Part shown: piece by piece, positions 4,571 through 47,614 of the stretch
Layout: each line of letters begins with the position of its first letter
How positions within the stretch are numbered: the stretch's first letter is position 1
Origin: a bacterium
Lineage (GTDB): Bacteria; Acidobacteriota; Blastocatellia; HR10
NCBI GenBank assembly: GCA_041640655.1
Contig: JBEPZV010000001.1
Coordinates: 128,001-192,000 of the forward strand
Direction of reading: 5' to 3'
DNA length: 64,000 nt
Made by a program: the position numbers and the translations under genes
Notes under the pieces: generated by a model
What the model was told of the DNA's origin: nothing
Databases searched by the model: none
Seen by the model: only the letters and a program-made list of their open reading frames with translations

Positions 4571-5127
4571 ATGAGAGCTCAGGAGCCGCAATCCCCCAAG
4601 CGACCGATCTGGGGCACCCCACGTGGGGACCCTTCTGGTGGAGTCGTCACGATCTCCGGCCGTTCACCCTCAGCGATGAAGAGGCCTGGGAGCTCATCAC
4701 CACCCCGCCCTGGCGTTGCGTGATCGCATGGGTCACACGAGAGAACCAGCCCGTGGTCGCCCCCATGGCGTATCAGGTGCTCGATGGGAAGATCATGCTC
4801 ACCACGACGAAGAACCGAGATAAAGTGAAAGCCTTCCGGCGGAACCCTGCGATCTCCCTCTGCTTTCAGAACGCCAAGGGCTCCAAACCTGTGACCGTGC
4901 GCAGCCGCCTGGACTCCGACGATCCCGAGCTCACCCGCCGCTGGATCACGTCCATCGTGGACAGCTACGGGCATCCCCTGAGTCTGGAAGAGAAGCAGCT
5001 CGACATCGCGCGTTACAGCAGCCCGGATCGGCTCATCCTCATCGTCACGATGGAGGAACTGCTCACCTTCGATCGAGAGAAGATGATCCGGGCCGAGCGG
5101 GAGAACCTCGACGTGTGGGAGACGTGA
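4571..5127 (+). CDS. Pyridoxamine-5'-phosphate-oxidase-like (PPOX, FMN/F420 split-barrel) protein; start uncertain, 5' end possibly frameshifted at the palindrome
   Basis: The frame of ORF 4720-5127 extends upstream as DLRPFTLSDEEAWELI; also TTTKNRDKVKAFRRNPAISLCF. The only nearby ATG with a plausible RBS (4571) is in another frame. Confidence 0.6.
4611..4632 (+). repeat. Short form of the palindromic element
   Basis: GGGGCACCCCACGTGGGGACCC; core identical to the 9241 copy. Confidence 0.85.
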
Positions 5128-5140
5128 CGGAGGATCGCTC

Positions 5141-6037
5141 ATGGCTGCGAAGAAAGCGGACAAGGTGATGACGCTGACCGAAGCCGCGACACTCGTGCGC
5201 GATGGGGACACCGTGGCGCTGCAGGGCATGGGGACGCAGATGAGCCCACTCGCCCTCGTGCGCGAGCTGATTCGGGCGGGCAAGCGCGATCTCACGATCG
5301 TGATGATCGTCGGTGGCATCGGACTCGATTGGCTCATCGCCGCCGGATGCGTGCGCCGCGTCATCGCCATCATCGTCAATCTCGATGAGTTCGGCATGGC
5401 TCACGCCTTCCGCCGAGCCGTGGAGGCCGGGGAGGTCGTCATGGAGGAATACAGCGAGCATCAGCTCCTATCGCGCCTTTTGGCCGGAGCCTATGGGCTG
5501 CCATTCCTCGTCACGCGCGCTGGCCTCGGCACGGACCTGCTCGCCCTGCACCCGGAGACCACGCGAATCATCGCCTGTCCGTTCACCGGACAAGAGGTCG
5601 TCGCCTGCCGAGCGCTCGTGCCGGACGTCGCCATCCTCCACGCGCATCGCGCCGATCGCTACGGCAATGTCCAGTTCTTCCCGAAACCCATCTGGCTCGA
5701 CGCGGACGTCTTCCCCCGCGCCGCGAAGAAGGTCATCGTCACCGTCGAGGAGATCGTCGAGAACGAGGAGATCCGACGCACGCCCATTCATACGGGCATC
5801 CCCTATTTCAAGGTGGACGCCGTCGTCGAGGTCCCCTACGGGGCTCATCCCTGCTCCCTCTACCCCTTCTATGCGTTCGATCGCGCGCTCTTTCAGGAAT
5901 ACGCGACCGCCTCGCGAACGGCGGAGGGCACGCGCGCCTTCTTAGACCGATACGTCTATGGTCCGACGACCCACGCGGAGTACCTGCAGCGAGTGGGAGG
6001 AGCCGAGATGCTCCTCCGCATTCGAAAATGGGAGTGA
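5141..6037 (+). CDS. CoA-transferase family I alpha subunit (GctA/IpdA-like)
   Basis: VRDGDTVALQG, PLALVRELIR, GLDWLIAAGCV, GLPFLVTRAGLGTD, HAHRADRYGN, PYGAHP. Confidence 0.9.
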   Translation: MAAKKADKVMTLTEAATLVRDGDTVALQGMGTQMSPLALVRELIRAGKRDLTIVMIVGGIGLDWLIAAGCVRRVIAIIVNLDEFGMAHAFRRAVEAGEVVMEEYSEHQLLSRLLAGAYGLPFLVTRAGLGTDLLALHPETTRIIACPFTGQEVVACRALVPDVAILHAHRADRYGNVQFFPKPIWLDADVFPRAAKKVIVTVEEIVENEEIRRTPIHTGIPYFKVDAVVEVPYGAHPCSLYPFYAFDRALFQEYATASRTAEGTRAFLDRYVYGPTTHAEYLQRVGGAEMLLRIRKWE

Positions 6038-6041
6038 GCGT

Positions 6042-6848: not shown

Positions 6849-6860
6849 AGGCGAACCCTC

Positions 6861-8024: not shown

Positions 8025-8040
8025 ACCGGAGGAGAAGGGA

Positions 8041-8811: not shown

Positions 8812-8839
8812 ACAACGTGAAGAAGGAGGACGACGACCG

Positions 8840-9235: not shown

Positions 9236-9240
9236 CCTCA

Positions 9241-9264
9241 CGGGCACCCCACGTGGGGACCCCG
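9241..9264 (+). repeat. Short (24-bp) palindromic element, intergenic
   Basis: CGGGCACCCCACGTGGGGACCCCG equals the 40-bp element minus its inner 16 nt. Confidence 0.9.
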
Positions 9265-9282
9265 AATGGCGGGGAAGAGCAG

Positions 9283-15588: not shown

Positions 15589-16626
15589 ATGAGACTCCAT
15601 TATCTCTTGGACACGCACGCCGGACCATATGACCGTCCGATCCCGACGCGCGAGGAGGTGAGCGCGTTCATCGATCAGCTCTACCGCGAGATCGAACTGG
15701 CCGAAGCGGGCGGGTTCGATGCGATCGTCGTGCCCGAGCGTCACGGTCGCACCGAATGCTTCTTCCCCTCGTCGCTGGTGCTGCTGTCGGTCATCGCCGC
15801 GCGAACGAGCCGCCTTCGCCTGGGCAGTTACATCCTCGTGCTCCCCCTGCATCATCCGATCCACGTGGCCGAACAGGTGGCCATGATCGATCAGGTCTCG
15901 CGCGGACGCGTCATCTTCGGCGTCGCCGCCGGATACCATTCCGGATACAGCCGAATGTTCGGCATCCCTCATCACGAACGCGGCGCCCGATTCGAGGAGC
16001 AGGTCGAGATCATCAAACTCGCGTGGACCGAAGAGCGGTTCTCTTACCACGGCCGATACTATCACTTCACCGACGTCATGGTCACCCCCAAGCCCTATCA
16101 AACACCGATGCCCGAGTGGTGGGTCGGAGGGATGTTCCCCAAGACGATCGCCCGGGCCGGGCGCATCGGCGACGCCTGGTGTAGCGATCCGTTCCCCCTC
16201 GATCGCCAGGTCTGGCTCGAGCAGGTCCGCCTCTATCGCGAGGCGGCGCGCGCGGCCGGACGTCCGTCGAAGGTCATCCTCATGCGCGACGGATGGGTGG
16301 CGCCCACGCGCCAGGAGGCCGAGGAGGTGTTCGGACGGCTCGCCGTCGAAGAGTGGCTCTTTTACTTCCGATGGGGCATCCTCACGCACCATCCGGAGTT
16401 CCAGTCCGAATCCGATTTCACCCTCGAACGCGCCAGCCGTCACTTCGTCCTCGGGACTCCGGAGGACTGCATCCGACAAATCGAGATGTACGCGCGCGAG
16501 TACGATGTGGATGAGATCGTCATGCGCTTCCGCCTGCCCAAGGGGCCGCGATGGGATCAGGTCCTGCACTGCCTCGCCCTCTTCGGACGCGAGGTCGTGC
16601 CGTATTTCCATGGGAAGGCCTCATGA
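15589..16626 (+). CDS. LLM-class flavin-dependent oxidoreductase (tandem paralog)
   Basis: GFDAIVVPERH, HPIHVAEQVAMIDQVSRGR, GTPEDCI. Confidence 0.88.
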   Translation: MRLHYLLDTHAGPYDRPIPTREEVSAFIDQLYREIELAEAGGFDAIVVPERHGRTECFFPSSLVLLSVIAARTSRLRLGSYILVLPLHHPIHVAEQVAMIDQVSRGRVIFGVAAGYHSGYSRMFGIPHHERGARFEEQVEIIKLAWTEERFSYHGRYYHFTDVMVTPKPYQTPMPEWWVGGMFPKTIARAGRIGDAWCSDPFPLDRQVWLEQVRLYREAARAAGRPSKVILMRDGWVAPTRQEAEEVFGRLAVEEWLFYFRWGILTHHPEFQSESDFTLERASRHFVLGTPEDCIRQIEMYAREYDVDEIVMRFRLPKGPRWDQVLHCLALFGREVVPYFHGKAS

Positions 16627-17144
16627 CGAAGATCCTCGAACGCAACGTCAACGTGAAGATCTTCGACGATCGCGGGCCATCCCTGCGCGTGCAGGGATCG
16701 CTGCTTGATGTCGAGCACAGCTTTCACCTGGAGTTGATCGTGGAGGTCCAGACCGGACGTATCCTCTCCGCGCGCGCGGAGATGATCAAGCGCCCGTATC
16801 CCACGCTGTGCCCGCCCGCGTTGCAAAACGTCGCCCGCCTGGAGGGAGAGGTCATCGGACGGGGAATCAATCGGCGGATCGCCGAGCTCCTCGGCGGCGC
16901 GAGCGGATGCGTCCATCTTGTGGAGGTCGCCCAATCCGCCGTTCGCTTCACGGCCACCTATCTCATCGATCGGCGCACGGGGATGAGCGAAGAGGGATTG
17001 AGCGGACTCTCCGAGCACGAACATCGCCAGCGCTGGCTGCCCTTGCTGAAGAATACCTGCCATGTCTTCCGCGTGGAGGAGACGGAGCGCGCGCCGGTCC
17101 CCGAACACTCGAGCGCCGAGGGGCCTCGACCTCCGCATGTGTGA
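16623..17144 (+). CDS. DUF2889-like protein
   Basis: DVEH, PYPTLCP, LGGASGCVHL, KNTCH; ATGA overlap with the upstream gene. Confidence 0.7.
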   Translation: MTKILERNVNVKIFDDRGPSLRVQGSLLDVEHSFHLELIVEVQTGRILSARAEMIKRPYPTLCPPALQNVARLEGEVIGRGINRRIAELLGGASGCVHLVEVAQSAVRFTATYLIDRRTGMSEEGLSGLSEHEHRQRWLPLLKNTCHVFRVEETERAPVPEHSSAEGPRPPHV

Positions 17145-17178
17145 TCCATTCCCCGGAAGGGAGAAAGGAGGGAGAGAG

Positions 17179-20130: not shown

Positions 20131-20217
20131 GGACGTTCGAAAGCGAAGGGTCCACAAGAAGCCGCGCCCGCTCGCCCCTGAAGTGCGGGCGGTCGAGAAC
20201 GATTCGAGGAGGAGAAG

Positions 20218-20799
20218 ATGCCCGCTGTCCCGTTAAAAGATGTGAACGATCTTCCGCCTGACCTGCAGCATCTCATCGCCGAGTATGACGCGTGGATCGG
20301 AGATACGACCTTCGCCCGCGTCATCGCCCATCGGCCCGAGGCCTTTCGGGCGTTTCACGCCTTGTACGTGTCGCTGCTCGAGGGCCGCGTCGAATCGGCG
20401 ATCAAGGAGCTGGCCCGACTGCGACTCGCGCGACTGAACGGATGTGCGTACTGAACGGCGGCGAATCTCGCCTGGGCCAGGCGAAACCAAATCCCCGAGG
20501 AGAAGATCCGCGGGCTCGATGACCCCGAGCGCGGGCCATTCACACCCCGCGAGAGGGCCGTCCTGAAACTGGCCGAGATCATGGCGCATCGCTCGCAGAT
20601 CGTCCTGGAAGCGGCGGTGCTGGAGGAGCTGAAGCGCGAGCTGACCGACGAGGAGCTCGTGGAGCTCGGCATGTACTTCGCGCTCGTCACCGGATTTCAG
20701 AAGTTCAACACCGCGTTCCGCATCCTCTACGCCTGCGCGACGGAGCCGTCCACCTCACCCGGCGGCGCCGATTTGACAGAGGAACGGGAGATGCGATAA
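20218..20799 (+). CDS. AhpD/carboxymuconolactone-decarboxylase-like selenoprotein candidate (CxxU), 193 aa
   Basis: ORFs 20218-20454 and 20581-20799 are in the same frame, separated only by the TGA at 20452-20454. Joined they read KELARLRLARLNGCAY-U-TAANL..FTPRERAVLKLAE..LTDEELVELG. Confidence 0.85.
20468..20484 (+). promoter_or_regulatory. Putative bacterial SECIS hairpin
   Basis: TCGCCTG-GGC-CAGGCGA perfect 7-bp stem; the G-containing loop starts 20 nt after the UGA. Confidence 0.7.
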
Positions 20800-20803
20800 A
20801 GTC

Positions 20804-20831
20804 CGTTGACCAAACGGACGTTTGGTCAACG
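20804..20831. promoter_or_regulatory. Perfect palindrome, putative TetR operator
   Basis: CGTTGACCAAACG-GA-CGTTTGGTCAACG (13-bp arms), directly before the GAGGAGG RBS. Confidence 0.75.
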
Positions 20832-20844
20832 AGGAGGCAGCGGC

Positions 20845-21261
20845 ATGATCGGCGGCGTGAATCACATCGCGCTTTTGGTCGCGGACCTGGAGGCGAGCAT
20901 CGAACGCTTCCAGCGCCTGTTGGGAGCGACGCTTCGGGAGCGCAGCTTCTTGCCCGAATCCAAGACCGAGGTGGCCGTGCTCGAGATCGGGGGCGTCCAC
21001 CTGGAGTTGCTCAGCGCGCGGGATCCGGATACCAAGGTCGGGCGCTTGCTCCGAGAGCGCGGGGAGGGGATCCACCACATCTCGTTTCACGCTCACGGCC
21101 TGGAGGCCGAATTGGCGCGCCTGCGCGAACAAGGGGCGCGCGTCCTCGATCCCCAACCGCGCACCGGATTGCATGGGCGGAAGATCGCGTTCCTCAATAT
21201 GGGCACAAACGGCGAGATCCTCATCGAGCTGGCCGAGGAGCCGAGCGAGTCCGCGGGCTGA
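20845..21261 (+). CDS. VOC-family protein, methylmalonyl-CoA epimerase-like
   Basis: NHIALLV, LELL, GEGIHHISF, PRTGLHGRKIAFL, LIELAE. Confidence 0.85.
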   Translation: MIGGVNHIALLVADLEASIERFQRLLGATLRERSFLPESKTEVAVLEIGGVHLELLSARDPDTKVGRLLRERGEGIHHISFHAHGLEAELARLREQGARVLDPQPRTGLHGRKIAFLNMGTNGEILIELAEEPSESAG

Positions 21262-21271
21262 GGAGAGTCAT

Positions 21272-22126
21272 ATGAAGGGAGCCATTGACGTCTGGTGCAA
21301 CCCGTTTACGCCCTCGGGGATCAAGCACCTCTTCCTCGACAACGAGGAAGTCTACTTCATGATGGGGATTCAATGGGGACGCGCCGAGAATATGAAGGGG
21401 CATGAGCCGCGCGAGTTCATCGCGATGATGGACCGGCTCGGCATCGAGAAGGTCTGCGTCCCCGCGCTCAAGCAGGCGTTCTATCGGAAGAACAAGATGG
21501 GCGCCGACTTCGCCTACGAGGAGATCGCCGAGCTGGTGCGGGCGTATCCGGATCGCATCGTGGGATTGGCCGGCATCAATCCCTTCGAGCGCATGCAGGG
21601 CGTGCGCCAGCTCGAACGGGCCGTTCGCGAGTACGGCTTCCGCGGCGCCCATATCCATCCGTACGGGTTCGGACTCCCGCTCAATGCGGCCGAGTGGTAC
21701 CCCTTCTACGCCAAATGCGCGGAGCTGGACATCCCGATCGTCATCCAGACGGGCCATTCGGCCGAGTTCATGCCGAGCGCCTGCGGTCGCCCGATCCTGC
21801 TCGACGACGTCGCCCTCTATTTCCCCGAGCTGCGATTGGTCGCCGCGCATACGGGATGGCCCTGGGTCGAGGAGCTGATCGCCCTGGCATGGAAACATCC
21901 TAACGTCTATATCGCCGTCAGCGGACATGCTCCGAAATATTGGGACAAGTCGCTCGTTCACTTCCTCAACTCGCGCGGCATTGGGAAGGTGATGTGGGGG
22001 ACGGATTATCCGCTCATCCTGCATGAGGAGAGCCTGACGCAGATCGAACAGCTCGGGTTGAAGCCGGAGGCCAAGCGGGCGCTCCTGCGGGAGACGGCCG
22101 TGAAGGTCTTCAAGTTCGAGGAGTGA
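21272..22126 (+). CDS. Amidohydrolase_2 family protein
   Basis: AYPDRIVGLAGINP, YPFYAKCAELDIP, VAAHTGWPWVEE, KHPNVY, WGTDYP. Confidence 0.88.
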   Translation: MKGAIDVWCNPFTPSGIKHLFLDNEEVYFMMGIQWGRAENMKGHEPREFIAMMDRLGIEKVCVPALKQAFYRKNKMGADFAYEEIAELVRAYPDRIVGLAGINPFERMQGVRQLERAVREYGFRGAHIHPYGFGLPLNAAEWYPFYAKCAELDIPIVIQTGHSAEFMPSACGRPILLDDVALYFPELRLVAAHTGWPWVEELIALAWKHPNVYIAVSGHAPKYWDKSLVHFLNSRGIGKVMWGTDYPLILHEESLTQIEQLGLKPEAKRALLRETAVKVFKFEE

Positions 22127-22129
22127 GCC

Positions 22130-37104: not shown

Positions 37105-38768
37105 CGAACCGAACGGAGAAGATCCTCACGCTCGCCGAAGCCGTCCGGCAGATCGAGGACGGGAGCACGATCGCCCTCGGCGGTCTCTCCTACTTCAACG
37201 CGCCAATGGCGCTGGTGCGCGAATTGATCCGCCAGCGAAAGCGCGGGCTGACGGTGATCACCTCCGCCGTGACGGGCCTGCAGGCGGATCTGCTCATCGC
37301 CGCCGGAGGCGTGCGCCGGCTCATCAGCCCCTACGTGGGCCTGGAAGAGCTGGGCATGGCGCCGAATTTCCGGCGCGCGGCCGAGCGCGGGGAGATCGAG
37401 ATCTGCGAGATCGGAGAGGCCTTCCTCGCCTTCGGTCTGAAGGCGGGAGCAGCCGGCGCGCCCTTCTTCCCCCTCCCTCGCGCGCTCGCCCGCACGGATC
37501 TCGTTCGGGTGAATACCGACTATCGCTTCACCCGAGACCCATTCACCGGCGAGGAGGTCCTCTGCGTGCCGGCGCTTGTGCCCGATTGGGCGCTGCTGCA
37601 CGCGCAGCAGAGCGATCCGTTCGGAAACGCGCGCCATCTCGGATCGGCTTACATGGACCTGCTGTTGGCGCGCGCCGCGCGCCGCTGTATCGTGAGCTGC
37701 GATGAGGTGATCCCTCAAGAGGCCGTGCGCGCGGAGCCGCAGCGCACGACGCTGCCGGCAGTTCTCGTGGACCACGTCGTCCCGCTCTTCGGGAGCGCGC
37801 ATCCGACGGCGAGCGAGCCGCTCTACGATGTGGACCGCGAGCACCTGCGGCTCTATCTCGAACTCAGCCGGACGCCCGAAGGCGCGGCGCAATATCTCCA
37901 GGAATTCGTGCGCTCCTCCGACGAATCGGCGTATCTCCAGAAGGTGAGGGGGACTGCGCAGGTCTCCGCATCCCGAGTGGAATCGACCGCGTGCGAACCC
38001 GAGGAAGCGCCGCCATCGGTCGGAGAACTCTTGGCCATCATCTTCTCGCGCCTGGTCGAGGATGGGGACGTCGTGGGCGTCGGCACGGGATGTATGGAGG
38101 TCGCGGCCGGACTTCGATTGGCGCAGCTCACACACGCTCCCAACCTCTCCTTCATCATGGGCGGAACGGGGGCGCTCAATCCGGACGCGGAGGAGTTGCC
38201 CCCCTCGGTGAACTCGGCGCGGGCGATCTCCCGAGCCGAAGCCGTGCTGCGGCTGGAGGATCTGTTCGATCTGGAGCTGAAGGGCGATCTCGATGTGATG
38301 TTCCTGAGCGGCTTGCAGATTGATCGGCACGGGAACGTGAACCTCGTGGGCATTGGTCCGTGGTCGGCACCGCGACGCCGAGGGCCGGGAAGCGTGGGAT
38401 TGGAGCTGGCTCCCCGCGCGCGACGCCGCGTGGCCTTCTTCCGTCGGCACACGCGCCAGATCTTCGTCGAACGGGTTGATTTCATCTCGGCCCCGGGTTA
38501 TGTTCCCCAGGTGATCGAAGGCGGAGCCTACTGGGTCATCACCGATCTGGCCGTGATGGATTTCGATGACGAGGGGCGAATGCGGCTGGCCTCCCTCCAT
38601 CCCGGCGCGACGGTGGAGCAGGTTCGAGAGCGAACGGGCTTTGAACTCCTCATCCCGGCCTCGGTGCCGACGACGCCACCGCCGACGCACGAGGAGCTTC
38701 ACTTGTTACGCACCCAGGTGGACCGCCGAGGGCTCCTGCGGGCGGGTCCCCGCATGGGGTGTCCGTGA
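37101..38768 (+). CDS. Fused alpha-beta CoA-transferase-family (IpdAB/Gct-like) protein
   Basis: Alpha half: DGSTIALGG, HAQQSDPFGN, SAHP. Beta half: LTHAPNL, LQIDRHGNVN, LASLHPG. Confidence 0.88.
   Translation: MTNRTEKILTLAEAVRQIEDGSTIALGGLSYFNAPMALVRELIRQRKRGLTVITSAVTGLQADLLIAAGGVRRLISPYVGLEELGMAPNFRRAAERGEIEICEIGEAFLAFGLKAGAAGAPFFPLPRALARTDLVRVNTDYRFTRDPFTGEEVLCVPALVPDWALLHAQQSDPFGNARHLGSAYMDLLLARAARRCIVSCDEVIPQEAVRAEPQRTTLPAVLVDHVVPLFGSAHPTASEPLYDVDREHLRLYLELSRTPEGAAQYLQEFVRSSDESAYLQKVRGTAQVSASRVESTACEPEEAPPSVGELLAIIFSRLVEDGDVVGVGTGCMEVAAGLRLAQLTHAPNLSFIMGGTGALNPDAEELPPSVNSARAISRAEAVLRLEDLFDLELKGDLDVMFLSGLQIDRHGNVNLVGIGPWSAPRRRGPGSVGLELAPRARRRVAFFRRHTRQIFVERVDFISAPGYVPQVIEGGAYWVITDLAVMDFDDEGRMRLASLHPGATVEQVRERTGFELLIPASVPTTPPPTHEELHLLRTQVDRRGLLRAGPRMGCP
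38742..38765 (-). repeat. Degenerate short palindromic element forming the last codons of the fused CoA-transferase
   Basis: GCGGGTCCCCGCATGGGGTGTCCG; 19/24 identical to the reverse complement of the 9241 copy. Confidence 0.55.
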
Positions 38769-38791
38769 CGAACGAGAGAGGACGCTCTCGG

Positions 38792-41351: not shown

Positions 41352-41359
41352 ACATCGTT

Positions 41360-41383
41360 CGGGCAACCCCGCGGGGGATCCCT
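41360..41383 (+). repeat. Degenerate short palindromic element, intergenic
   Basis: CGGGCAACCCCGCGGGGGATCCCT resembles the 24-bp form. Confidence 0.45.
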
Positions 41384-41396
41384 GAAGGAGTCGAGG

Positions 41397-42248
41397 ATGC
41401 GTATCGTCGTCTGCCTGACGCAGATTCTCGATCCGGAGATGCCGCCGAGTGAATTTCGACTGGATCCGCAACGAAAGGCGGCCGCCGAGGGGATCGGACA
41501 GCTCGTCGTCAGCATCTTCGATGAGAACGCGCTCGAGGTGGCGCTGCAGGTGCGCGAGCGCATAGCCGAGCGCGAGGGAGCACCCCACGCGATCTCTCGA
41601 TCGCGTGAGGACCCCGGCCCGGTGGAGATCGTCGCGCTCACCGTCGGTCCTCCTTCGGCCGCCGACGTCCTGCGGAAGGCGCTCAGTCTGCGCGCCGATC
41701 GCGCCATTTTGATCTCCAGCGAGGGATGGCCTCCGCTGGAAGGCGCCATCGTCGCCCGCCTTCTGGCCGCCGCCGTGAGACGGCTCCATCCGGTGGACCT
41801 CGTGCTCTGCGGGCGCGAGACGGGAGATTGGCATGGGGGACAGGTCGGCGCCTTCCTGGCCGAAGCGCTCGGATGGGCGAGCGTGAGCTTCGTCTCCCGC
41901 ATCGAGGTGGAGGGGGAGACCTTCCTCATGCGACGCCAATCGGACGAAGGATGGGAGATCGTGCGCGCGAGACGACCCGCCGTGGCGACGATCACCAACG
42001 ATGAGACGAACGTCCCGCGCTTGCCGAAGGTCAGAGATACGATGCTGGCCGCCCGCGCGTCGCTCCCCGTGTGGACGATCCCGGAACTGGTCGAAGATCC
42101 GAGAGAGCTGTGGCAGGCGAATGCCCTGCAGGTGCGCGAGTTGTTCATTCCGAGCAGCTCGAAGGCGTGCGAGGTGATCGAGGGGGAGACGGTTCAGGAG
42201 AAAGCCGTTCGGCTTCTCCAGGCGCTGCGCCGACGACGGATTCTCTGA
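41397..42248 (+). CDS. etfB: Electron transfer flavoprotein beta subunit, with an in-frame palindrome insertion
   Basis: MRIVVCLTQILDP, FDENALEVAL, TVGP, DLVLCG..GQVG, NVPRLP. Confidence 0.92.
   Translation: MRIVVCLTQILDPEMPPSEFRLDPQRKAAAEGIGQLVVSIFDENALEVALQVRERIAEREGAPHAISRSREDPGPVEIVALTVGPPSAADVLRKALSLRADRAILISSEGWPPLEGAIVARLLAAAVRRLHPVDLVLCGRETGDWHGGQVGAFLAEALGWASVSFVSRIEVEGETFLMRRQSDEGWEIVRARRPAVATITNDETNVPRLPKVRDTMLAARASLPVWTIPELVEDPRELWQANALQVRELFIPSSSKACEVIEGETVQEKAVRLLQALRRRRIL
41577..41616 (+). repeat. 40-bp palindromic element inside etfB
   Basis: GGAGCACCCCACGCGATCTCTCGATCGCGTGAGGACCCCG; 35/40 match to consensus; encodes GAPHAISRSREDP. Confidence 0.9.
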
Positions 42249-42268
42249 GCTGAGAGGAGGACGTCCTC

Positions 42269-43264
42269 ATGCGCACCGTGATGGTTCTCCTGCCGACATC
42301 CCGCATCGAGCGGGCCGAGCGCGAGGCCATCGGCGCCGCGCGCGCGTTGTCGCGGGAATGGTCGGCGAACGTGCAGGTGGCCCTCATCGCCCCAACGGCG
42401 GAGGGAATCGAAGGCCTCCGAGGGAGGACGGAGGCCTCTGGAGATGTGCGCCTGTGGATCGCCGCCCATCCGCAGCTGGCGGCGTATTCGCCCGAGCTGT
42501 ATGTGAGCGCCAGCGAACAGCTCATCACACGCGCGCGACCGGACGTGATTGTCTTCCCCAGTCGGACGATCCCGCTTGAGATCGCGCCGCGTCTCGCATA
42601 CCGGATCGGGGCGGCGATGGCGACCGATGTCATCGAGCTGCGCGCCGAGGATGAGACCGTCCGCATCACGAAGCCCGTCTACGGCGGCAAGGCGCACGCG
42701 GTGTTGATGGCGCAACGGTTCCCCCTCGTCCTCTGCGTGCGCCCGCGCGCGTTCGATCCGTTTGAGGGGGAGCTGCGCGACGATGCGGCGATGCGCGTCC
42801 AGGTGACGCTCGATCCCTCGTCCGTCCGCACGCAGCTCGTCCGACGGATTCAAGAGGACGCCGCGGCGGGAGTGTCGCTCGAAGAGGCGCGCGTCATCGT
42901 CAGCGGCGGGCGCGGCCTCGGCGGACCCGAGGGCTTCCGATTGCTCGAAGAATTGGCGCGGTGGCTCGGCGGCGCCGTCGGCGCTTCGCGCGCGGCGTGC
43001 GACGCCGGGTGGGTGCCGGCCAGCTGGCAAATCGGGCAAACGGGAAAGAAGGTCGCCCCCGATCTCTATATCGCCGTCGGGATCTCCGGAGCCAGCCAGC
43101 ACATCGTCGGCATCTCCGGGGCCAAGTGCATCGTCGCCATCAACACGGACCCCAAAGCGCCGATCTTCACAGTGGCGGATCTCGGGATCGTCGGCGATTA
43201 TCGAGCGGTCGTCCCCGCTCTGATCGCGGAGGTCAAACGGATGCGTGAGGAAGCAGAGGGATGA
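42269..43264 (+). CDS. etfA: Electron transfer flavoprotein alpha subunit
   Basis: [45 protein letters not shown]. Confidence 0.95.
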
Positions 43265-43302
43265 ACGCTTGAACGCGACGAGACCTTCTGGGAGGACGCG
43301 AC

Positions 43303-44100
43303 ATGAGTGAGCCGACGGTGCAGCTTGTCGTGGACGATGGCGTGGCCACGGTGACGCTCAACCGGCCCGAGGCGTTGAACGCTATTGACGCGACGTTGGC
43401 GGCCGAGTTGCGCGAGGTCTTTCGAACGTTGGGAGCGCGAGAGGATGTTCGGGCCGTGATCCTGACGGGAGCGGGACGGGCGTTCTCGGCGGGTGCGGAT
43501 TTGAAGTACCTTCACCGGAGATTGGAGGAGGGCGCTTCGGCCGAACAGTTGCTGGACGAGTTGCTCGGGCCGTTGAACGATACAATTCGACTCATTCGGG
43601 GCATGCCGAAGATCATCATCGCGGCCATTCACGGGGTCGCCAGCGGTGGCGGCTGTAACCTCGCGCTGGCGTGCGATTATCGGGTGGCGGCTGTGGGGAC
43701 GCGGTTCAACCAGGCGTTCGTGCGACTCGGGATCGCTCCGGATTGCGGAGGGACGTTCATTGTGCCGCGCCTGATCGGCTGGACGAAGGCGTTCGAATGG
43801 ATGGTGAGTGGAGCGTTGATCGAGGCTGAGGAGGCGGCCGCCTGGGGACTCGTGCATCGCGTCGTCCCCGAGGATCGCGTGCTCGAAGAGGCGCGCGCCT
43901 TCGCGCGCTCCGTGTGCGAAGGGCCGACACGAGCGATCGTGACCATCAAACACTTGCTCGCGATGAGCCTCGGAGCCTCCCTGGATGAGCAGCTGGAGCG
44001 GGAGCGGCAGCTCGTGGGCTTGCTCGCCGGCACCGAGGATTTCCGCGAAGGCGTGCGCGCCTTCCTCGAGAAGCGCCCCCCGCGCTTCTCCGGGCGATGA
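43303..44100 (+). CDS. Enoyl-CoA hydratase/isomerase (PaaG-like)
   Basis: LNRPEALNA, FSAGADL, AFVRLGIAPDCGG, EDFREGVRAF. Confidence 0.9.
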   Translation: MSEPTVQLVVDDGVATVTLNRPEALNAIDATLAAELREVFRTLGAREDVRAVILTGAGRAFSAGADLKYLHRRLEEGASAEQLLDELLGPLNDTIRLIRGMPKIIIAAIHGVASGGGCNLALACDYRVAAVGTRFNQAFVRLGIAPDCGGTFIVPRLIGWTKAFEWMVSGALIEAEEAAAWGLVHRVVPEDRVLEEARAFARSVCEGPTRAIVTIKHLLAMSLGASLDEQLERERQLVGLLAGTEDFREGVRAFLEKRPPRFSGR

Positions 44101-44114
44101 CGCGTCGCCCCGAT

Positions 44115-44159
44115 CCTCCCGGGGTCCCCACGCGATCCGGAGATCGCGTGGGGTGCCCG
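44115..44159 (-). repeat. 40-bp palindromic element plus 5-nt flank, intergenic
   Basis: Reverse complement is identical over 45 nt to 47010-47054. Confidence 0.95.
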
Positions 44160-44179
44160 AACTCCCCGAACGGAGGACT

Positions 44180-45136
44180 ATGTCGAGCGCATTCGAATTC
44201 GTTCCCCCCGGTCTCGATCTCGCCGATGATGACATCCATCCCATCGGTCCGGAACCCTGGTGGCGCGAGGCCTGGTACTTCGAATTCTTCGACCCGGCTT
44301 CGCGCGTTCAGTTCCAGGTCTATCAAGGCATCTTCCCGAACGCCGGTCGAGGGGATCTGACCTGCTACGTGTTCGTGGAGGGACGCCTGCGATACGAGCT
44401 GATGAAGATGGACTTCGCGATTCCGTCCGACATCGGGCGGGAGCGCTTGTGCTTCGGCCCCTTGAAATTAGAGATGCTCGAGCCCTTCGTCCGATGGCGC
44501 TTGCGCTACGATAGCCCGAGGATGCAGTGCGATCTCTCCTTCCGCGCGCTCCATCGCGCCTTCAGTTGGGCGGAGACCCGGCTCTGGATGGAAGACGCTC
44601 CGGTCGGGCAGCAGAGCCGCCATTTCGATCAGGTGGGATGGTACGAGGGATGGCTGCATCTGGATGACGAGCAGCTCTCCATCTCGGCGATCGGGATGCG
44701 CGATCGGATGTGGGGGTGGGGAGGGCGCGCTCTCTGGCGCGGGTATCTGGTCCTGTGGGCGCCCTTCTCCGAAGCCTTCGTCGTCAATGTGGCGGCCATG
44801 AACTTCGCCGACGGTCGACGCCACCTCTGCGGATATCTCCATCGCGAGGGCGAACGCACCTATCTCGACTCCGCGCGCCTGACCATCACCTGGAGCGAGC
44901 AGCGATGGAAGTCGGTCGAACGTGTGCACGCGCAGCTCACCGATCGGCGCGGGCGGTCGCTCGCGCTCTCGGCCCGACCGCTCGGCATCATTGATACATC
45001 GCATCATTGGCCGCACCGATTCGATCACCTCCTCTTCTCCATCGGCGAATATGAGTGCCAGGGGATGACCGGCTACGGATGCCTGACGTGGAGCTTCGTC
45101 ACGGCGGAGGAGAAGATGCGCGCCATCGAGTTCTGA
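44180..45136 (+). CDS. Hypothetical beta-rich protein (AttH/CrtC/tocopherol-cyclase-like fold)
   Basis: WREAWYFEFFD, LEPFVRWRLRY, HFDQVG, GMRDRMWG; GGAGG RBS. Confidence 0.6.
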   Translation: MSSAFEFVPPGLDLADDDIHPIGPEPWWREAWYFEFFDPASRVQFQVYQGIFPNAGRGDLTCYVFVEGRLRYELMKMDFAIPSDIGRERLCFGPLKLEMLEPFVRWRLRYDSPRMQCDLSFRALHRAFSWAETRLWMEDAPVGQQSRHFDQVGWYEGWLHLDDEQLSISAIGMRDRMWGWGGRALWRGYLVLWAPFSEAFVVNVAAMNFADGRRHLCGYLHREGERTYLDSARLTITWSEQRWKSVERVHAQLTDRRGRSLALSARPLGIIDTSHHWPHRFDHLLFSIGEYECQGMTGYGCLTWSFVTAEEKMRAIEF

Positions 45137-45160
45137 GAGGCGAAGCTCGGAGACGTGGCC

Positions 45161-46372
45161 ATGAAGTCGACCGACCTCACCGGGATCCTCCCGCGATCTC
45201 TCGATCGCGTGGCGTGCCTGAACGCGCTGCTCCATCGGTTCGGGGAGAGCGTCCGTCACTTCTTCCGCGCCGAGCAACGCTCGCACCTGTTCTCCCCCCT
45301 CTTTCATCTCCCCGGGCGATTGATCGCGGGGAGCTATTGCTACTACGAGCACCTGGTGCCCTTGTTGCGACAGGTGGCGCGACAGATGCCGCCGGAAGCC
45401 CTCGCGCATCGGGTGAAGCGACTCGGGGCGCGACCCAACGAGATCAACGCCAATTCTCTGCTGCTCGGGTATCTGAACGGGCGGGAGCAGCGGCGGCTGC
45501 TCGGCCATCGCGTGGCAGATGATCCGGAGGAGATCGCCTTCCTCCTGGACTTCTGGGCGCGCTTCCTCGCCGCCTATCGCGCCGATGGTCGGCTCTTGCC
45601 GGAGGAGAGCGGATTCGTTCTGCCGGTGCTCGAAGCGCGAGCGCTCGAAGTGCTCCTGCCGGAACTCCATCCGGAACCGGAGCACGCACGACGCCAGCGA
45701 GGTCCCCATGTGATCGGGAGATCGCGTGGGGTGCCCGAGCGGATGCGTCGCGCCCTGGCCACGCTCGAGCTCTTCGCCTTCGTCTTCAACGGCGAGGCGC
45801 GCGTCGGCCTCTTTCACCACGGGCCCTATCCCCGACCCGACGGCACGTGCGTGCTCGTCAAGGAGCTGGTGGGGTTGCAGGACGATTTCTATTCCTGGGC
45901 GGAGGAGTCCGTGCGACTCCCCGTGGCCCATGTGGCCTGCCTCTTGCTCGTGAAGGACGTCGAAGTGAGAATCGGTTTATTCGGATCGCTCCGGACGGAG
46001 CCCCGGGAGTACGCTCAGAACGTCGTGGCCTGTGGCCTCTTCACCGCCACGGGGGAAGACGTTCGTCCTCTCACGCTCGAGGAGCTGGAGGAGATCGCCG
46101 CGCACGCGGCTGAGGCGCAGATGCGCCTCTATCGCCACTTCCTCACATGGGATGATCGGCGTCGCATCGCCTATGGAGCGGAGCTCTACGGGAACCTGCT
46201 GCGCGTCTTCGGCGATCAGGCGGGACTCGGGCCGGATTTCCATCGGGAGATCCGAGAGCGCTTCCGGGAGAGCACGGACCGACATCTACAAGCCATACTC
46301 GCTGGCGAGCCTCCGGCCATCCTGCGGCATATCGCGGAGACGGCGGGAGAGATCTACAGCCCCCTCGCATGA
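45161..46372 (+). CDS. Hypothetical protein, paralog A, with an in-frame palindrome insertion
   Basis: Long ORF with typical codon use; aligns with the next ORF (ARPN, DDPE..F.LDFW, YR.DG.LLPE, TLEL, HGPY). Confidence 0.8.
   Translation: MKSTDLTGILPRSLDRVACLNALLHRFGESVRHFFRAEQRSHLFSPLFHLPGRLIAGSYCYYEHLVPLLRQVARQMPPEALAHRVKRLGARPNEINANSLLLGYLNGREQRRLLGHRVADDPEEIAFLLDFWARFLAAYRADGRLLPEESGFVLPVLEARALEVLLPELHPEPEHARRQRGPHVIGRSRGVPERMRRALATLELFAFVFNGEARVGLFHHGPYPRPDGTCVLVKELVGLQDDFYSWAEESVRLPVAHVACLLLVKDVEVRIGLFGSLRTEPREYAQNVVACGLFTATGEDVRPLTLEELEEIAAHAAEAQMRLYRHFLTWDDRRRIAYGAELYGNLLRVFGDQAGLGPDFHREIRERFRESTDRHLQAILAGEPPAILRHIAETAGEIYSPLA
45698..45737 (-). repeat. 40-bp palindromic element inside paralog A
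   Basis: CGAGGTCCCCATGTGATCGGGAGATCGCGTGGGGTGCCCG; 36/40 match to the 44120-44159 copy; encodes RGPHVIGRSRGVP. Confidence 0.9.
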
Positions 46373-46384
46373 AGACCGGGTCGG

Positions 46385-47614
46385 ATGAGGCGCATGACCC
46401 TCGAGGAGATCAATCGCCACATCCGGCTGATCGCGGAACAGCTGAAGGCGTTCATGCGCTCGGAGCAACGCGCGCTCCTGCGATCGGCGCTTTTTGACGT
46501 CCCCCGCCGCTCCTCGCTCGGATGGGAATGCCTCTACCGCACGGCCTATCCGCTGCTGGCGGACCTCACGTCGGTCGTCACGCCTGAGGAGATCGGACGC
46601 CGGATGAAGCGCGTGTGCGCGCGCCCGAATTTCCTCACGCTGAGCATTCTGATCTGCTGCTACCTCGGGGGACGCCAGCAGCGGATCCTCGATCTCGGCG
46701 TGCGACCGGGAGAGCCCTTCCCCGAGGATGATCCCGAGCAGATCGGCTTCGTCCTCGACTTCTGGTGGCGCGTCTGCCGCACCTATCGCGAGGATGGTGC
46801 CCTCTTGCCGGAAGAGCGAGGAGGGACGATGCCGATCCTGCCGGCCGGAACGATCGCTCGACTCCGCGCGCTGCTGGTCGAGACGGATCCGCTCACGGTG
46901 AAACGCCTTCGTCGTCTGGCGGCGACGCTGGAGCTGTACGCGTTCATCCTGCACGGGGAGCAACGCGATGGCCTCTTCGCGCACGGCCCGTACGCGCTGC
47001 AGGAGCGGGCGGGCACCCCACGCGATCTCCGGATCGCGTGGGGACCCCGGGAGGTGCTCGTCATTCGCGAGTTCACCGACCTGCAGAACAGTTATCTCCC
47101 CTGGGCGCAGACGCGCGCGCGGAACCTCTACCCGAATCTGGCGCTCGCGCTCCAGCTTCGGGACGTGACGGCTCAGTTCGATCTCTTCGGAGGGGTGCGA
47201 TTCGATCCCCCGGAATATGCTGATCGCGTTCGCGCCGTCGCGTTGGTGACCGTGGCCGACAATGGGGAGATCCGAGCCGTCCCTTTCGAGGAGATCGAGG
47301 AGATCGAACGCCGCGCGGCCGACGCCCAGATGGAGCTGTATCAACGCGCGCTCTGCTGGTCGCCGCGCTTCAAGATCGAATACGGCCTCTACCTGTTCGC
47401 GAACCACGTGAAGGCGTTCTTCGATCTGGCGGGGGTGGAGGCGGGCGAGCGCATTCGTCGGGCGTTCGAAGAGGCCGCCGCTCCGTTCCTGCAGCGGTTG
47501 CTCGCCGATGCCGAACCACCATTCATCTGGCGGTTCATGGCGACGACAGAAGGCGATTTCTTCTATCCGATCTCCGCGCAGATGCCCGAACGTGAGGGAG
47601 GAGAGGGGCGATGA
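46385..47614 (+). CDS. Hypothetical protein, paralog B, with an in-frame palindrome insertion
   Basis: Aligns end to end with 45161-46372; ATGA overlap with the next gene. Confidence 0.8.
   Translation: MRRMTLEEINRHIRLIAEQLKAFMRSEQRALLRSALFDVPRRSSLGWECLYRTAYPLLADLTSVVTPEEIGRRMKRVCARPNFLTLSILICCYLGGRQQRILDLGVRPGEPFPEDDPEQIGFVLDFWWRVCRTYREDGALLPEERGGTMPILPAGTIARLRALLVETDPLTVKRLRRLAATLELYAFILHGEQRDGLFAHGPYALQERAGTPRDLRIAWGPREVLVIREFTDLQNSYLPWAQTRARNLYPNLALALQLRDVTAQFDLFGGVRFDPPEYADRVRAVALVTVADNGEIRAVPFEEIEEIERRAADAQMELYQRALCWSPRFKIEYGLYLFANHVKAFFDLAGVEAGERIRRAFEEAAAPFLQRLLADAEPPFIWRFMATTEGDFFYPISAQMPEREGGEGR
47010..47049 (+). repeat. 40-bp palindromic element inside paralog B (consensus copy)
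   Basis: CGGGCACCCCACGCGATCTCCGGATCGCGTGGGGACCCCG; encodes GTPRDLRIAWGPR. Confidence 0.95.

What the first reader, a model, noticed from the sequence alone, without database searches (positions are those of the whole stretch)
4611..47054. Palindromic mobile-like element, stop-free in all six frames, inserting both between genes and in frame inside proteins
Seen: a 40-bp nested hairpin, CGGGCACCCCACGCGATCTCCGGATCGCGTGGGGACCCCG, at 41577, 44120(-), 45698(-) and 47010. A 24-bp internally deleted form lies at 4611 and 9241, with degenerate copies at 38742 and 41360. The intergenic 44115-44159 copy is identical (inverted) over 45 nt to the intragenic 47010-47054 copy, implying recent spread. The consensus has no stop codon in any frame, and the three intragenic full copies are read in three different frames or orientations (GAPHAISRSREDP, RGPHVIGRSRGVP, GTPRDLRIAWGPR). 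Established: Rickettsia palindromic elements insert in frame into genes; REPs are spread by RAYT transposases but are mostly extragenic. Inference: a very short REP/RPE-like family that creates new peptide loops in this lineage.
Basis: partly seen in the sequence, partly recalled or inferred. Interest (0 to 1): 0.88.

Follow-up and report, generated by a model that had tools for sequence, protein, structure and literature searches.

The report
Frame-preserving 42-base hairpin mobile element
A 42-base GC-rich DNA hairpin has copied itself into dozens of places in a small group of hot-spring acidobacteria, mostly inside working genes, where it adds 14 amino acids to loops and linkers; such in-gene selfish repeats are known from Rickettsia and a few other bacteria, so this is a new variant, not a new kind.

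Summary
The 40-nt nested hairpin is at the stated places, and I found one more decayed copy at 45180-45221.

- **It is an insertion.** Eighteen distinct copies in three sister genomes differ from an empty orthologous site by exactly 42 nt; one differs by 45 nt.
- **Spread is recent.** Empty sites exist both ways between genomes with 91-98% identical flanks, and in other hot-spring populations.
- **Most copies are in genes.** At least 11 of the 16 full copies in this genome are in frame inside genes. All three frames and both orientations are used, in loops, interdomain linkers and tails.
- **Decay keeps the frame.** Old intragenic copies lose 15, 27 or 30 nt; the two intergenic short forms are 26-nt units.
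- **No known machinery fits.** There is no GTAG/CGTC tag, no fixed target duplication, no conserved target motif, and no Y1 (RAYT/IS200) transposase in seven genus genomes.
- **Copies cluster.** Eighteen of 22 hits lie on one contig holding 7% of the genome.
- **The stop-free property is weak evidence.** It holds for 20-35% of random 42-mers here.

Intragenic REPs are already published, and this scan has noted similar hairpins in other phyla. Verdict: a real new variant of a known kind, with the mobilising mechanism unknown.

The parts
41577..41618 (+). Full copy (42-nt insertion) in frame inside etfB (41397-42248). It encodes GAPHAISRSREDPG in a loop.
   Evidence: The 42 nt are absent from the orthologues of G001, G003, G004 and G006; G002 keeps a 15-nt remnant. 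The segment falls in a gap against PDB 6fah_B. The AlphaFold model shows coil between helix 44-60 and strand 77-84, with pLDDT below 50 at residues 63-73.
44119..44160 (-). Full copy in the 79-nt spacer between the enoyl-CoA hydratase gene (stop at 44100) and the DUF7065/DUF7064 gene (ATG at 44180).
   Evidence: Exact 40-mer. G002 has a short form at this site and other genus members have unrelated short spacers. Logan contigs X5/X6 skip 49 nt here and carry 7 other letters.
45180..45221 (-). Decayed full copy at the 5' end of paralogue A. It codes for an N-terminal extension (TDLTGILPRSLDRV) if the start at 45155/45161 is used.
   Evidence: nhmmer E=4.5e-5. One contig of run X13 (depth 3.3) skips exactly 42 nt, 45178->45221. 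G002 has 18 nt between the flanks.
45697..45738 (-). Full copy in frame inside paralogue A (45155-46372), read as RGPHVIGRSRGVPE.
   Evidence: The 42 nt are absent in G002, G001 and G004 and in loci L015-L017 and L019-L021. Logan contigs X5/X6 skip 42 nt, 45695->45738, with 4 nt of microhomology.
47009..47050 (+). Full copy in frame inside paralogue B (46385-47614), read as GTPRDLRIAWGPRE.
   Evidence: Exact 40-mer. The 42 nt are absent in G001, G003 and G004. G002/L015 keep a 27-nt remnant after an in-frame 15-nt internal deletion, which is also seen in runs X5, X6 and X13. L018 has 42 unrelated nt at this site.
4611..4636 (+). Short form (26-nt unit = 42 minus the 16-nt inner palindrome), intergenic.
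   Evidence: Sequence. The site is empty in G002 and G005. It lies between the stop at 4536 and the first start of the next ORF at 4720.
9241..9264 (+). Short form, intergenic (after the stop at 9235).
   Evidence: Sequence. The site is empty in G002 and G005. Gene context.
38742..38765 (-). Degenerate short form at the junction between the CoA-transferase gene and the next gene.
   Evidence: Sequence. G002 has 9 nt between the flanks, against 24 in G000.
41360..41383 (+). Degenerate short form in the thiolase-etfB spacer.
   Evidence: Sequence. G002 has a better-preserved short form at the same site; other genus members have unrelated 38-43-nt spacers.
41397..42248 (+). Host gene etfB (electron transfer flavoprotein beta subunit).
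   Evidence: Pfam ETF match E=3.8e-25, beginning only at residue 72, after the insert. PDB matches.
45155..46372 (+). Host gene paralogue A (405 aa, no Pfam family).
46385..47614 (+). Host gene paralogue B (409 aa, no Pfam family; 38% identical to A).

Best explanation
This is a family of tiny non-autonomous mobile elements. The inserted unit is 42 nt: a 40-nt GC-rich imperfect palindrome plus one base on each side.

**Structure (shown).** The palindrome has a 4-bp outer stem, a conserved 2x2 CA/AC mismatch that gives it polarity, a 12-bp inner stem and a 4-nt variable loop.

**Insertion (shown).** The unit lands at new sites as a whole, without a fixed target-site duplication and without a recognisable target motif. 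It has done so repeatedly and recently in one clade (G000, G002, G005) of a hot-spring Blastocatellia-like genus.

**Tolerance in genes (shown, with translation inferred).** The unit is 14 codons long and, being GC-rich, has no stop codon in any frame. An insertion into a gene therefore neither shifts nor ends the reading frame. It is most simply read through as 14 extra residues. Copies survive where the protein tolerates this: surface loops, interdomain linkers, and N- and C-terminal tails.

**Decay (shown).** Copies later lose the hairpin centre. Inside genes these deletions keep the frame.

**Enzyme (inferred).** The element is moved in trans by an enzyme that recognises the folded single-stranded hairpin, as RAYT or IS200/IS605 TnpA do for REPs. 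No such gene was found, so this step is open.

**Local spread (inferred).** Spread is mostly local, which would explain the regional clustering.
For: **Identity and stability**
- Identical or near-identical copies lie at unrelated sites.
- The hairpin folds at -34.8 kcal/mol, z=-6.1 against shuffles.

**Exact 42-nt filled/empty differences in 18 distinct copies**
- G000 copies: C1:37859, 49356, 57595, 57843, 61546, 169578, 173180, 173698, 175009 and C6:29269.
- Copies in relatives: L049:12361, L054:1103, L054:6468, L039:4729, L073:795, L074:875, L078:420 and L079:54.
- Sources.
- One further copy differs by 45 nt (L055:729).

**Recent and ongoing spread**
- Polymorphism runs in both directions between G000 and G002, whose flanks are 91-98% identical.
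- Polymorphism is also seen in Logan contigs of other hot-spring runs.

**Polarity of the change**
- Orthologues from other genus members and from other phyla lack the inserts.

**Position in genes**
- At least 11 of the 16 full G000 copies lie in ORFs: EtfB, paralogues A and B, OpcA, the MerT-HMA linker, the MerA-like HMA/oxidoreductase linker, Crp/Fnr between the cNMP and HTH domains, DUF3179, the BatA/VWA protein (two copies) and the DUF1015 tail.
- All three reading frames and both orientations are used.

**Evidence for read-through**
- In-gene remnants keep the frame: 27, 15 and 30 nt were lost in G002.
- Both 26-nt short forms are intergenic.
- The EtfB insert lies in a low-confidence loop of the model.

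**Distribution**
- The covariance model finds the family in 6 of 8 family genomes. Counts, both strands included: G005 49, G000 29, G002 22, G006 6, G003 1, G001 1, G004 0, G007 0.
- The strict pattern finds none in 34 genomes outside the genus.
- There are 55 metagenome loci with an exact inner stem.
Against: - **No transposase.** No Y1/RAYT/IS200 gene (PF01797) scores over the cut-off in any of the 7 genus genomes. The three element-rich genomes are only 73-90% complete, so absence is not shown.
- **No tag, duplication or motif.** There is no GTAG/CGTC tag. Junction microhomology varies from 0 to 8 nt, and no target motif is conserved.
- **Weak covariation.** One pair carries 3 compensatory cells, and 15 of 500 shuffles reach the observed score. 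Hairpin conservation may simply reflect youth.
- **Same-length replacements.** Two cases do not fit simple cut-or-copy insertion. G002 carries 32 nt of the element in place of 32 native nt in etfA. L018 has 42 unrelated nt at the paralogue B site.
- **Unexplained clustering.** Eighteen of 22 hits lie on 7.2% of the genome, p=1.4e-17.
- **No expression data.** There are no RNA or peptide data, so translation of the inserts is inferred.
- **Draft genomes.** All genomes are metagenome-assembled drafts.
Confidence: 0.8

Rival explanations
1. Copies spread by templated repair rather than transposition. In this reading, microhomology-mediated template switching or short-patch gene conversion copies an existing hairpin into a break or stalled fork at another site, preferentially nearby.
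For: - Junction microhomology of up to 7-8 nt matches the element's own ends (CGTGCGG and CCGGGCGG).
- Same-length patch replacement occurs in etfA of G002 and at the paralogue B site.
- Copies cluster strongly by region.
- No transposase was found.
Against: - The unit is exactly 42 nt in 18 copies whatever the target, and several junctions have 0-2 nt of microhomology. Template switching would be expected to give variable lengths.
- Copies also occur on other contigs and in many metagenome contigs.
Confidence: 0.13
2. The hairpin is a host-selected functional site whose copies are kept because they are useful. It could act as an intercistronic mRNA stabiliser or processing signal, or as a protein-binding site. 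The in-gene copies would then be incidental.
For: - Several copies and short forms sit in short spacers between co-directional genes of operons: 38742, 41360, 44120, 4611 and 9241. This is the usual place for REPs according to passages of PMC3733652.
- The stem is very stable.
Against: - Most full copies are inside genes, in either orientation.
- Sister genomes do without individual copies.
- Copies decay quickly by deletion.
- A function would not explain how identical 42-mers arrive at new sites.
Confidence: 0.1
3. The in-gene copies are not translated. They are skipped by the ribosome or removed from the RNA.
For: The -35 kcal/mol hairpin would be a strong obstacle to translation. Translational bypass of short GC-rich inserts is known in some yeast mitochondria; this is recalled and was not looked up.
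Against: - All copies are stop-free and 14 codons long in the host frame.
- Partial remnants that can no longer fold still keep the frame.
- There are no conserved take-off or landing codons in the flanks.
Confidence: 0.04
4. The segments are ancestral coding sequence lost in relatives, or assembly artefacts.
For: None beyond the fact that every genome here is a metagenome-assembled draft.
Against: - Outgroups in other genera and phyla, and solved ETF structures, lack the segments.
- The same 42-mer occurs in unrelated genes, in all frames, and between genes.
- Independent assemblies and runs carry the same copies.
Confidence: 0.02

Closest known systems
Intragenic REPs of the GTAG- and CGTC-tagged superfamilies (Di Nocera, De Gregorio & Rocco 2013, PMC3733652; passages read)
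   Same: - Both are short (20-40 bp) GC-rich imperfect palindromes, interspersed, as single units.
- Some copies are in frame inside known genes, including N- and C-terminal positions.
- The CGTC type has no dedicated transposase.
- One family (T. roseum GTAG-23) is reported as clustered.
   Different: - This element has no GTAG or CGTC tag.
- It comes from Acidobacteriota-like bacteria. The passage seen lists GTAG repeats in Proteobacteria, Cyanobacteria, Chloroflexi and the PVC group.
- The majority of full copies are intragenic here (at least 11 of 16), whereas the paper says most REPs are intergenic.
- The unit is a fixed 42 nt, so every insertion keeps the frame.
Rickettsia palindromic elements (RPE; Ogata et al. 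2000, seen only as cited in PMC3733652 and PMC10969869, passages)
   Same: Both are selfish palindromic repeats inserted in frame into many unrelated genes that stay functional. Both have empty sites in relatives, and both add peptide segments.
   Different: - RPEs are about 100-150 bp, according to the passage in PMC10969869.
- RPEs are restricted to Rickettsia. RPE-4 and RPE-6 end in CGTC (PMC3733652).
- This element is 42 nt, unrelated in sequence, and lives in a free-living thermophile with a GC-rich genome.
REP/REPIN-RAYT systems of gamma-proteobacteria (Nunvar 2010, Bertels & Rainey 2011; recalled, and cited in PMC3733652)
   Same: The hairpin has a polarity-giving mismatch, there is no target duplication, and the likely substrate is single-stranded DNA.
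   Different: - No RAYT was found.
- Copies are singlets rather than inverted doublets.
- Copies are mostly intragenic.
- There are tens of copies per genome, not hundreds.
MITEs and IS200/IS605-derived palindrome-associated elements
   Same: Both are non-autonomous and found in genomes that carry TnpB-only IS copies. The hairpin even rides inside the 3' end/omega-RNA region of one TnpB IS family in metagenome contigs.
   Different: - The element is 42 nt, with no terminal inverted repeats beyond the hairpin itself.
- There is no fixed target duplication and no conserved target tetranucleotide.
- The ends of the G000 TnpB IS do not resemble it.

Membership tests
REP (repetitive extragenic palindrome, sensu Di Nocera 2013 / Nunvar 2010) | Short (20-40 bp) imperfect palindrome repeated at many unlinked sites | tested here: met
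   There are 16 full copies and about 16 weaker ones in G000. The fold is -34.8 kcal/mol.
REP (repetitive extragenic palindrome, sensu Di Nocera 2013 / Nunvar 2010) | GTAG or CGTC tetranucleotide at one end | tested here: not met
   Alignment of 16 copies with their flanks shows neither tag. The ends are N-CGGGCA...CCCCG-N.
REP (repetitive extragenic palindrome, sensu Di Nocera 2013 / Nunvar 2010) | Cognate RAYT (Y1 transposase, PF01797) in the genome, typically flanked by REPs | tested here: inconclusive
   None of the 7 genus genomes has a PF01797 match over the cut-off; the one sub-threshold hit is in G003. The element-rich genomes are 73-90% complete.
REP (repetitive extragenic palindrome, sensu Di Nocera 2013 / Nunvar 2010) | Predominantly extragenic location | tested here: not met
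   At least 11 of the 16 full G000 copies are in ORFs, 2 are clearly intergenic and 3 are unclear.
Rickettsia palindromic elements (RPE) | In-frame insertion in functional genes, with empty sites in orthologues | tested here: met
Rickettsia palindromic elements (RPE) | About 100-150-bp unit of the RPE sequence families, with a CGTC end | tested here: not met
   The unit is 42 nt, with no CGTC end. The size of RPEs is taken from a passage of PMC10969869.
MITE | 70-300 bp with terminal inverted repeats and a fixed-length target-site duplication | tested here: not met
   The unit is 42 nt, and the junction repeat varies from 0 to 8 nt.
IS200/IS605-type hairpin element mobilised by TnpA | Insertion next to a conserved tetra- or pentanucleotide target, without duplication | tested here: not met
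   No duplication is seen, which fits. No conserved flank was seen in the empty/filled pairs either.
IS200/IS605-type hairpin element mobilised by TnpA | Y1 TnpA present | tested here: inconclusive
   No PF01797 match. TnpB (PF07282) is present in 5 of the 7 genus genomes.

The most novel reading that the evidence does not exclude
The element spreads by a mechanism that is not the RAYT/REP one. The observations that point this way are:
- a fixed 14-codon unit;
- no tag, no target duplication and no target motif;
- insertion hot regions shared by three species but hit at different sites;
- same-length 'patch' replacements of native coding sequence.

Together these would fit either an undescribed hairpin-specific enzyme acting locally or a conversion-like copying process. 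In either case the element acts as a standing generator of new 14-residue loops and interdomain linkers in the proteins of a thermophile.
Probability: 0.2. Interest if true: 0.8.

Novelty: new variant of a known kind. Interest (0 to 1): 0.55.

Why it matters
- **Range.** It extends in-gene palindromic selfish DNA to a free-living, GC-rich, thermophilic acidobacterial lineage. There the element is mostly intragenic.
- **A natural experiment.** Filled, empty and decayed states of the same sites exist in sister genomes. This shows where proteins tolerate 14 extra residues: EtfB, MerT-HMA, a MerA-like protein, Crp/Fnr and OpcA.
- **A tractable mechanism question.** The exact 42-nt unit and the lack of any known mobilising gene make it a good case for asking how tag-less REP-like hairpins move. 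That question was left open for CGTC REPs in PMC3733652.
- **Annotation.** The inserts break domain matches. The ETF profile begins only after the insert. The element also breaks short-read contigs at its copies.

Tried and rejected
- **RNA evidence.** No RNA holder was listed among 22 runs. All four runs laid were contigs, so nothing can be said about expression.
- **Rfam.** No family matched at E<=0.01 on the TnpB-linked loci L100 and L112-L114, L134.
- **Viral contigs.** There were 0 matches to the inner-stem pattern.
- **Y1 transposase.** None scored over the cut-off.
- **TnpB IS as the source of the hairpin.** I rejected this. The G000 IS (C1:28738-30255) lacks the hairpin and has unrelated ends. 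In the metagenome copies the hairpin sits about 150-180 nt inside the end, and so looks like a passenger.
- **TnpB presence against element load.** The agreement is only loose across 7 related genomes, so it is not evidence.
- **Inner 16-nt palindrome as a separate element.** I rejected this. Thirteen of 17 genomic occurrences are inside family members.
- **The unrelated 42-mer of L018 as a second repeat family.** I rejected this. It is unique in G005 and absent from G000, G002 and G006 at up to 3 mismatches.
- **Origin or terminus as the cause of clustering.** C1 has a GC-skew sign change near C1:145-150 kb. However, dnaA is on C3 and skew on other contigs is noisy, so no conclusion follows.
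- **My GC-frame gene caller.** It under-called genes on the lower-GC contig C1, marking only 53% as coding. It wrongly labelled copies 37860, 49357 and 61547 as intergenic; Pfam corrected this. My interim idea that all CTATAG-loop copies (which contain TAG) are intergenic was therefore wrong. Two of the three are in genes, read as S-I-D-R.
- **Frame usage.** Frames are not significantly skewed on my hand tally of the peptides: roughly 15, 10-11 and 16 for the three classes. The same orthologous site is counted more than once in that tally.
- **Intragenic calls for G002 and G005.** The counts (9 of 18 and 16 of 31) use the same conservative caller and are lower bounds.
- **Earlier scan notes by sequence.** Nothing was found.
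- **Literature.** Searches for a description of this element in Acidobacteria/Blastocatellia returned nothing relevant in the listings. I did not read those papers.
- One search failed because the frame was off by one; I corrected it.

Full report
**1. The observation**

None were expected in 100 dinucleotide-preserving shuffles. Diverged copies lie at 41577 (+, 5 substitutions) and 45698 (-, 4 substitutions). The 45-nt identity between 44115-44159 and the inverted 47010-47054 is exact.

The 24-nt forms at 4611 and 9241, and the degenerate ones at 38742 and 41360, are as described. The three peptides are correct translations. I found one more decayed full copy at 45180-45221.

The consensus has no stop triplet on either strand. 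So do 20.4% of random 42-mers of this genome, and 35.0% of those with similar GC. That property follows from composition and is not evidence of design.

**2. Anatomy**

Aligning 16 full copies gives N-CGGGCACCCCACGCGATC-nnnn-GATCGCGTGGGGACCCCG-N. The parts are:
- a 4-bp outer stem;
- a conserved CA/AC 2x2 mismatch that makes the two strands distinguishable;
- a 12-bp inner stem;
- a 4-nt variable loop.

As RNA it folds at -34.8 kcal/mol, z=-6.1. Older in-gene copies are weaker: -22.4 kcal/mol in etfB and -28.0 in paralogue A.

Covariation is weak. One pair has three compensatory cells, and 15 of 500 shuffles reach the observed score. Conservation of the stem may simply reflect recent copying.

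**3. Census and distribution**

In the window's own genome (3.13 Mb, 128 contigs, 89.8% complete):
- A substitution search finds 16 full copies: 13 on C1, 2 on C6 and 1 on C7.
- An nhmmer profile finds 32 distinct places at E<=0.1 and 22 at E<=1e-3.
- Eighteen of those 22 are on contig C1, which holds 7.2% of the bases (binomial p=1.4e-17).

Across relatives:
- Covariance model R1 finds the family in 6 of 8 genomes of the taxonomic family. Matches at E<=0.001, both strands counted, are G005 49, G000 29, G002 22, G006 6, G003 1, G001 1, G004 0 and G007 (another genus) 0.
- A strict pattern hits 3 of 41 related genomes and none of 34 outside the genus.
- The closest named relatives returned for a neighbouring protein are Blastocatellia/Acidobacteriota MAGs and two 'Bacterium HR' hot-spring bins. 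The public runs that hold the window are hot-spring metagenomes.
- An exact inner-stem pattern finds 55 metagenome loci and no viral contig.

**4. It is an insertion, and a recent one**

*etfB.* The G000 gene is 42 nt longer than the orthologues of G001, G003, G004 and G006. The extra piece is exactly the element. G002 keeps a 15-nt remnant at the same site.

*Paralogues A and B.* These tandem genes are 38% identical, and each carries a copy where the other has a gap. In a 14-sequence alignment that includes loci from Gemmatimonadota and Gammaproteobacteria MAGs, only G000 has the paralogue A insert. At the paralogue B site:
- G000 has the full copy;
- L015 has a 27-nt remnant;
- L018 has 42 nt of unrelated sequence;
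- the other four B-type sequences have nothing extra.

*Systematic flank comparison.* Exact 42-nt filled/empty differences appear for 18 distinct copies:
- Ten in G000: C1:37859, 49356, 57595, 57843, 61546, 169578, 173180, 173698, 175009 and C6:29269.
- Eight in G002/G005 that are empty in G000: L049:12361, L054:1103, L054:6468, L039:4729, L073:795, L074:875, L078:420 and L079:54.
- Sources.

Of the remaining automated comparisons, one copy differs by 45 nt (L055:729), two gave 33 and 36 nt on truncated hits, and four were too complex to score. One of its 42-nt rows (C1:172119 against L047) is not a true empty site, because G002 carries a short form there. Flanks of the G000/G002 pairs are 91-98% identical.

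*Other populations.* Logan contigs of other hot-spring runs show the same polymorphisms:
- X5/X6 skip exactly 42 nt at 45695->45738.
- X5/X6 carry the 27-nt deletion in the etfB copy, and X5, X6 and X13 carry the 15-nt deletion in the paralogue B copy.
- One contig of X13 (depth 3.3) skips 42 nt at 45178->45221.

**5. Junctions**

Junction microhomology ranges from 0 to 8 nt. Where it is present, it matches the element's own ends (CGTGCGG, CCGGGCGG, ACGG, CGCT, TCGG). I found no fixed-length duplication and no conserved flanking motif.

Intergenic insertions are also exactly 42 nt (57843). The 14-codon length is therefore a property of the element, not only a filter imposed by selection.

**6. 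Where the copies sit**

My GC-frame gene caller was too strict on the lower-GC contig C1, calling only 53% of it coding. Pfam scans corrected three 'intergenic' calls.

Of the 16 full G000 copies, at least 11 are in ORFs:

| Host | Position of the copy | Peptide, where read |
|---|---|---|
| EtfB | surface loop | GAPHAISRSREDPG |
| Paralogue A | internal | RGPHVIGRSRGVPE |
| Paralogue B | internal | GTPRDLRIAWGPRE |
| OpcA | C-terminal domain | GSPRDLSIAWGA |
| MerT-HMA fusion protein | linker | RAPHAISGSRGDPV (absent in G002) |
| MerA-like ORF | HMA/oxidoreductase linker | GHPMRSIDRMGTP |
| Crp/Fnr regulator | between cNMP and HTH domains | GVPRRSIDRLGGP |
| DUF3179 protein | inside the domain | APHATSSSRGDP |
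| BatA/VWA protein | C-terminal part, two copies | GHPTRSSDRMGTP; RHPTRSEDRMGIP |
| DUF1015 protein | last residues | DIPRDLQTAWGPRE |

Two copies are clearly intergenic (57844 and 172120 = window 44120). Three are unclear (912, 45314, 214998).

All three frames and both orientations are used. In the EtfB model the insert is coil between helix 44-60 and strand 77-84, with pLDDT below 50 at residues 63-73. The model is only moderate: mean pLDDT 68.8 from six sequences. The insert falls in a gap against the solved CarD/ETF beta chain 6fah_B.

**7. Decay**

In G002 the in-gene copies have lost 27 nt (etfB), 15 nt (paralogue B) and 30 nt (OpcA site). All three are multiples of three. A 15-nt half-element also sits in G002's paralogue B at a second site.

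The two short forms in the window are 26-nt units, which is 42 minus the 16-nt inner palindrome. Both are intergenic, and both are absent from G002 and G005. They are either quick deletion derivatives or a variant that spreads itself.

The inner palindrome is not an independent family: 13 of its 17 genomic occurrences lie inside elements.

The contrast between frame-keeping deletions in genes and 26-nt units in spacers is the main indirect evidence that the in-gene copies are translated.

**8. Mechanism**

Shown:
- whole-unit insertion of a fixed 42 nt;
- no target duplication;
- recent activity;
- tolerance in permissive protein sites;
- decay by internal deletion.

Inferred: mobilisation in trans by an enzyme that recognises the folded single strand, as for REP/RAYT or IS200/IS605.

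Against that inference, no PF01797 protein scores over the cut-off in seven genus genomes, although the three rich genomes are 73-90% complete. There is also no GTAG/CGTC tag.

TnpB-only IS copies exist in 5 of the 7 genomes. In several metagenome contigs the hairpin lies inside the 3' end/omega-RNA region of a TnpB IS that is homologous to G000 C1:28796-29133. The G000 IS lacks the hairpin and its ends are unrelated. I therefore read the hairpin there as a passenger.

Three observations remain unexplained:
- **Regional clustering.** Copies of G002 and G005 sit at other sites, but map mostly to regions homologous to G000 C1 and C6:18-33 kb. That is 10+2 of 18 for G002 and 9+12 of 31 for G005.
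- **Same-length replacement in etfA.** In G002, 32 nt of the element replace 32 native nt. Logan contigs X5/X6 show a joint, 42779 to 44120 on opposite strands, that fits an element copy at that site.
- **The paralogue B site in L018.** It has 42 unrelated nt, and this 42-mer is unique in G005.

These keep a conversion-like or template-switch rival alive.

**9. Comparison with what is known**

In passages of Di Nocera et al. 2013 (PMC3733652), REPs are 20-40-bp palindromes tagged by GTAG or CGTC and are mostly intergenic. Intragenic copies are reported in several species, with the highest numbers in Opitutus terrae and Rickettsia conorii. CGTC REPs lack a dedicated transposase.

Passages of PMC10969869 describe RPEs of about 150 bp inserted in frame in Rickettsia genes. 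I saw PMC2996958 and PMC1779305 only as search listings.

The present element works like these. It fails the tag test and the size test, and it has no RAYT.

This scan has also noted similar in-frame GC-rich hairpins in Patescibacteria, Omnitrophota and others. Those are unchecked AI notes. First-stage notes on this same genome (e1-1066348, -349, -350) describe the same element.

**10. Verdict**

It is a new variant of a known kind, distinguished by:
- an exact 14-codon unit;
- being mostly intragenic;
- lacking a tag;
- having no detected transposase;
- regional clustering;
- a thermophilic acidobacterial host.

The mobilising mechanism is the open question.

Noticed in passing
G000 contig C1:28738-30255 (outside the window); loci L100, L112-L114, L131, L133, L134: G000 has a TnpB-only IS of about 1.5 kb where G002 and G005 have 88 nt. 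In metagenome contigs, copies of a related TnpB IS, or shorter derivatives of it, carry the 42-nt hairpin about 150-180 nt inside the conserved end. Some of them carry a short form as well. Rfam gave no match.
   Followed up: partly
window ~42775-42810 (etfA) compared with L047:16522-16553 (G002): G002 has 32 nt of the element (peptide LRAGTPHDLQIACDP) exactly replacing 32 nt of native etfA sequence, with no length change. Logan contigs X5/X6 show a joint there that fits the same state.
   Followed up: partly
L018:~230-280 (paralogue B site); G005:C49:241-279: The same site that holds the element in G000 carries 42 nt of unrelated sequence. This 42-mer is unique in G005.
   Followed up: partly
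G000 contig C1:~37-50 kb (outside the window): This is a mercury-resistance-like cluster with MerR-like, MerT-HMA fusion and two MerA-like ORFs. One MerA-like ORF stops after 290 aa. In the other, the HMA and oxidoreductase parts lie in different frames, which may be frameshifts or assembly errors. Several element copies lie here, and GC is lower (0.56-0.62).
   Followed up: no
window 45155-47614, with neighbours 44180-45136 and 47611-49767: The tandem paralogues A and B have no Pfam family. They are conserved next to a DUF7065/DUF7064 gene and the 718-aa gene in loci from Blastocatellia, Gemmatimonadota and Gammaproteobacteria MAGs. In L018 the homologue of the 718-aa gene has its own element copy near the N-terminus (VRQWAPHAISRSRGDPR).
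   Followed up: partly
L035 (G005:C124) 3087-5704: Seven family members lie within 2.6 kb: three inside one 1045-aa ORF, three inside an 801-aa ORF (two of them adjacent, 4 nt apart), and one between the two ORFs.
   Followed up: partly
L091, L093, L118, L120 (JABAHQ01 contigs): A related hairpin family has the same inner stem but different outer stems (CCGGGCCCCCACGCGATC...GGGGAACCCCCGCC). The flanks are 74-80% GC, so it is probably in another organism.
   Followed up: no
window ~16000-22000 (C1:145-150 kb): GC skew changes sign here, from negative on the left to positive on the right. dnaA is on another contig (C3), and skew on other contigs is noisy.
   Followed up: partly
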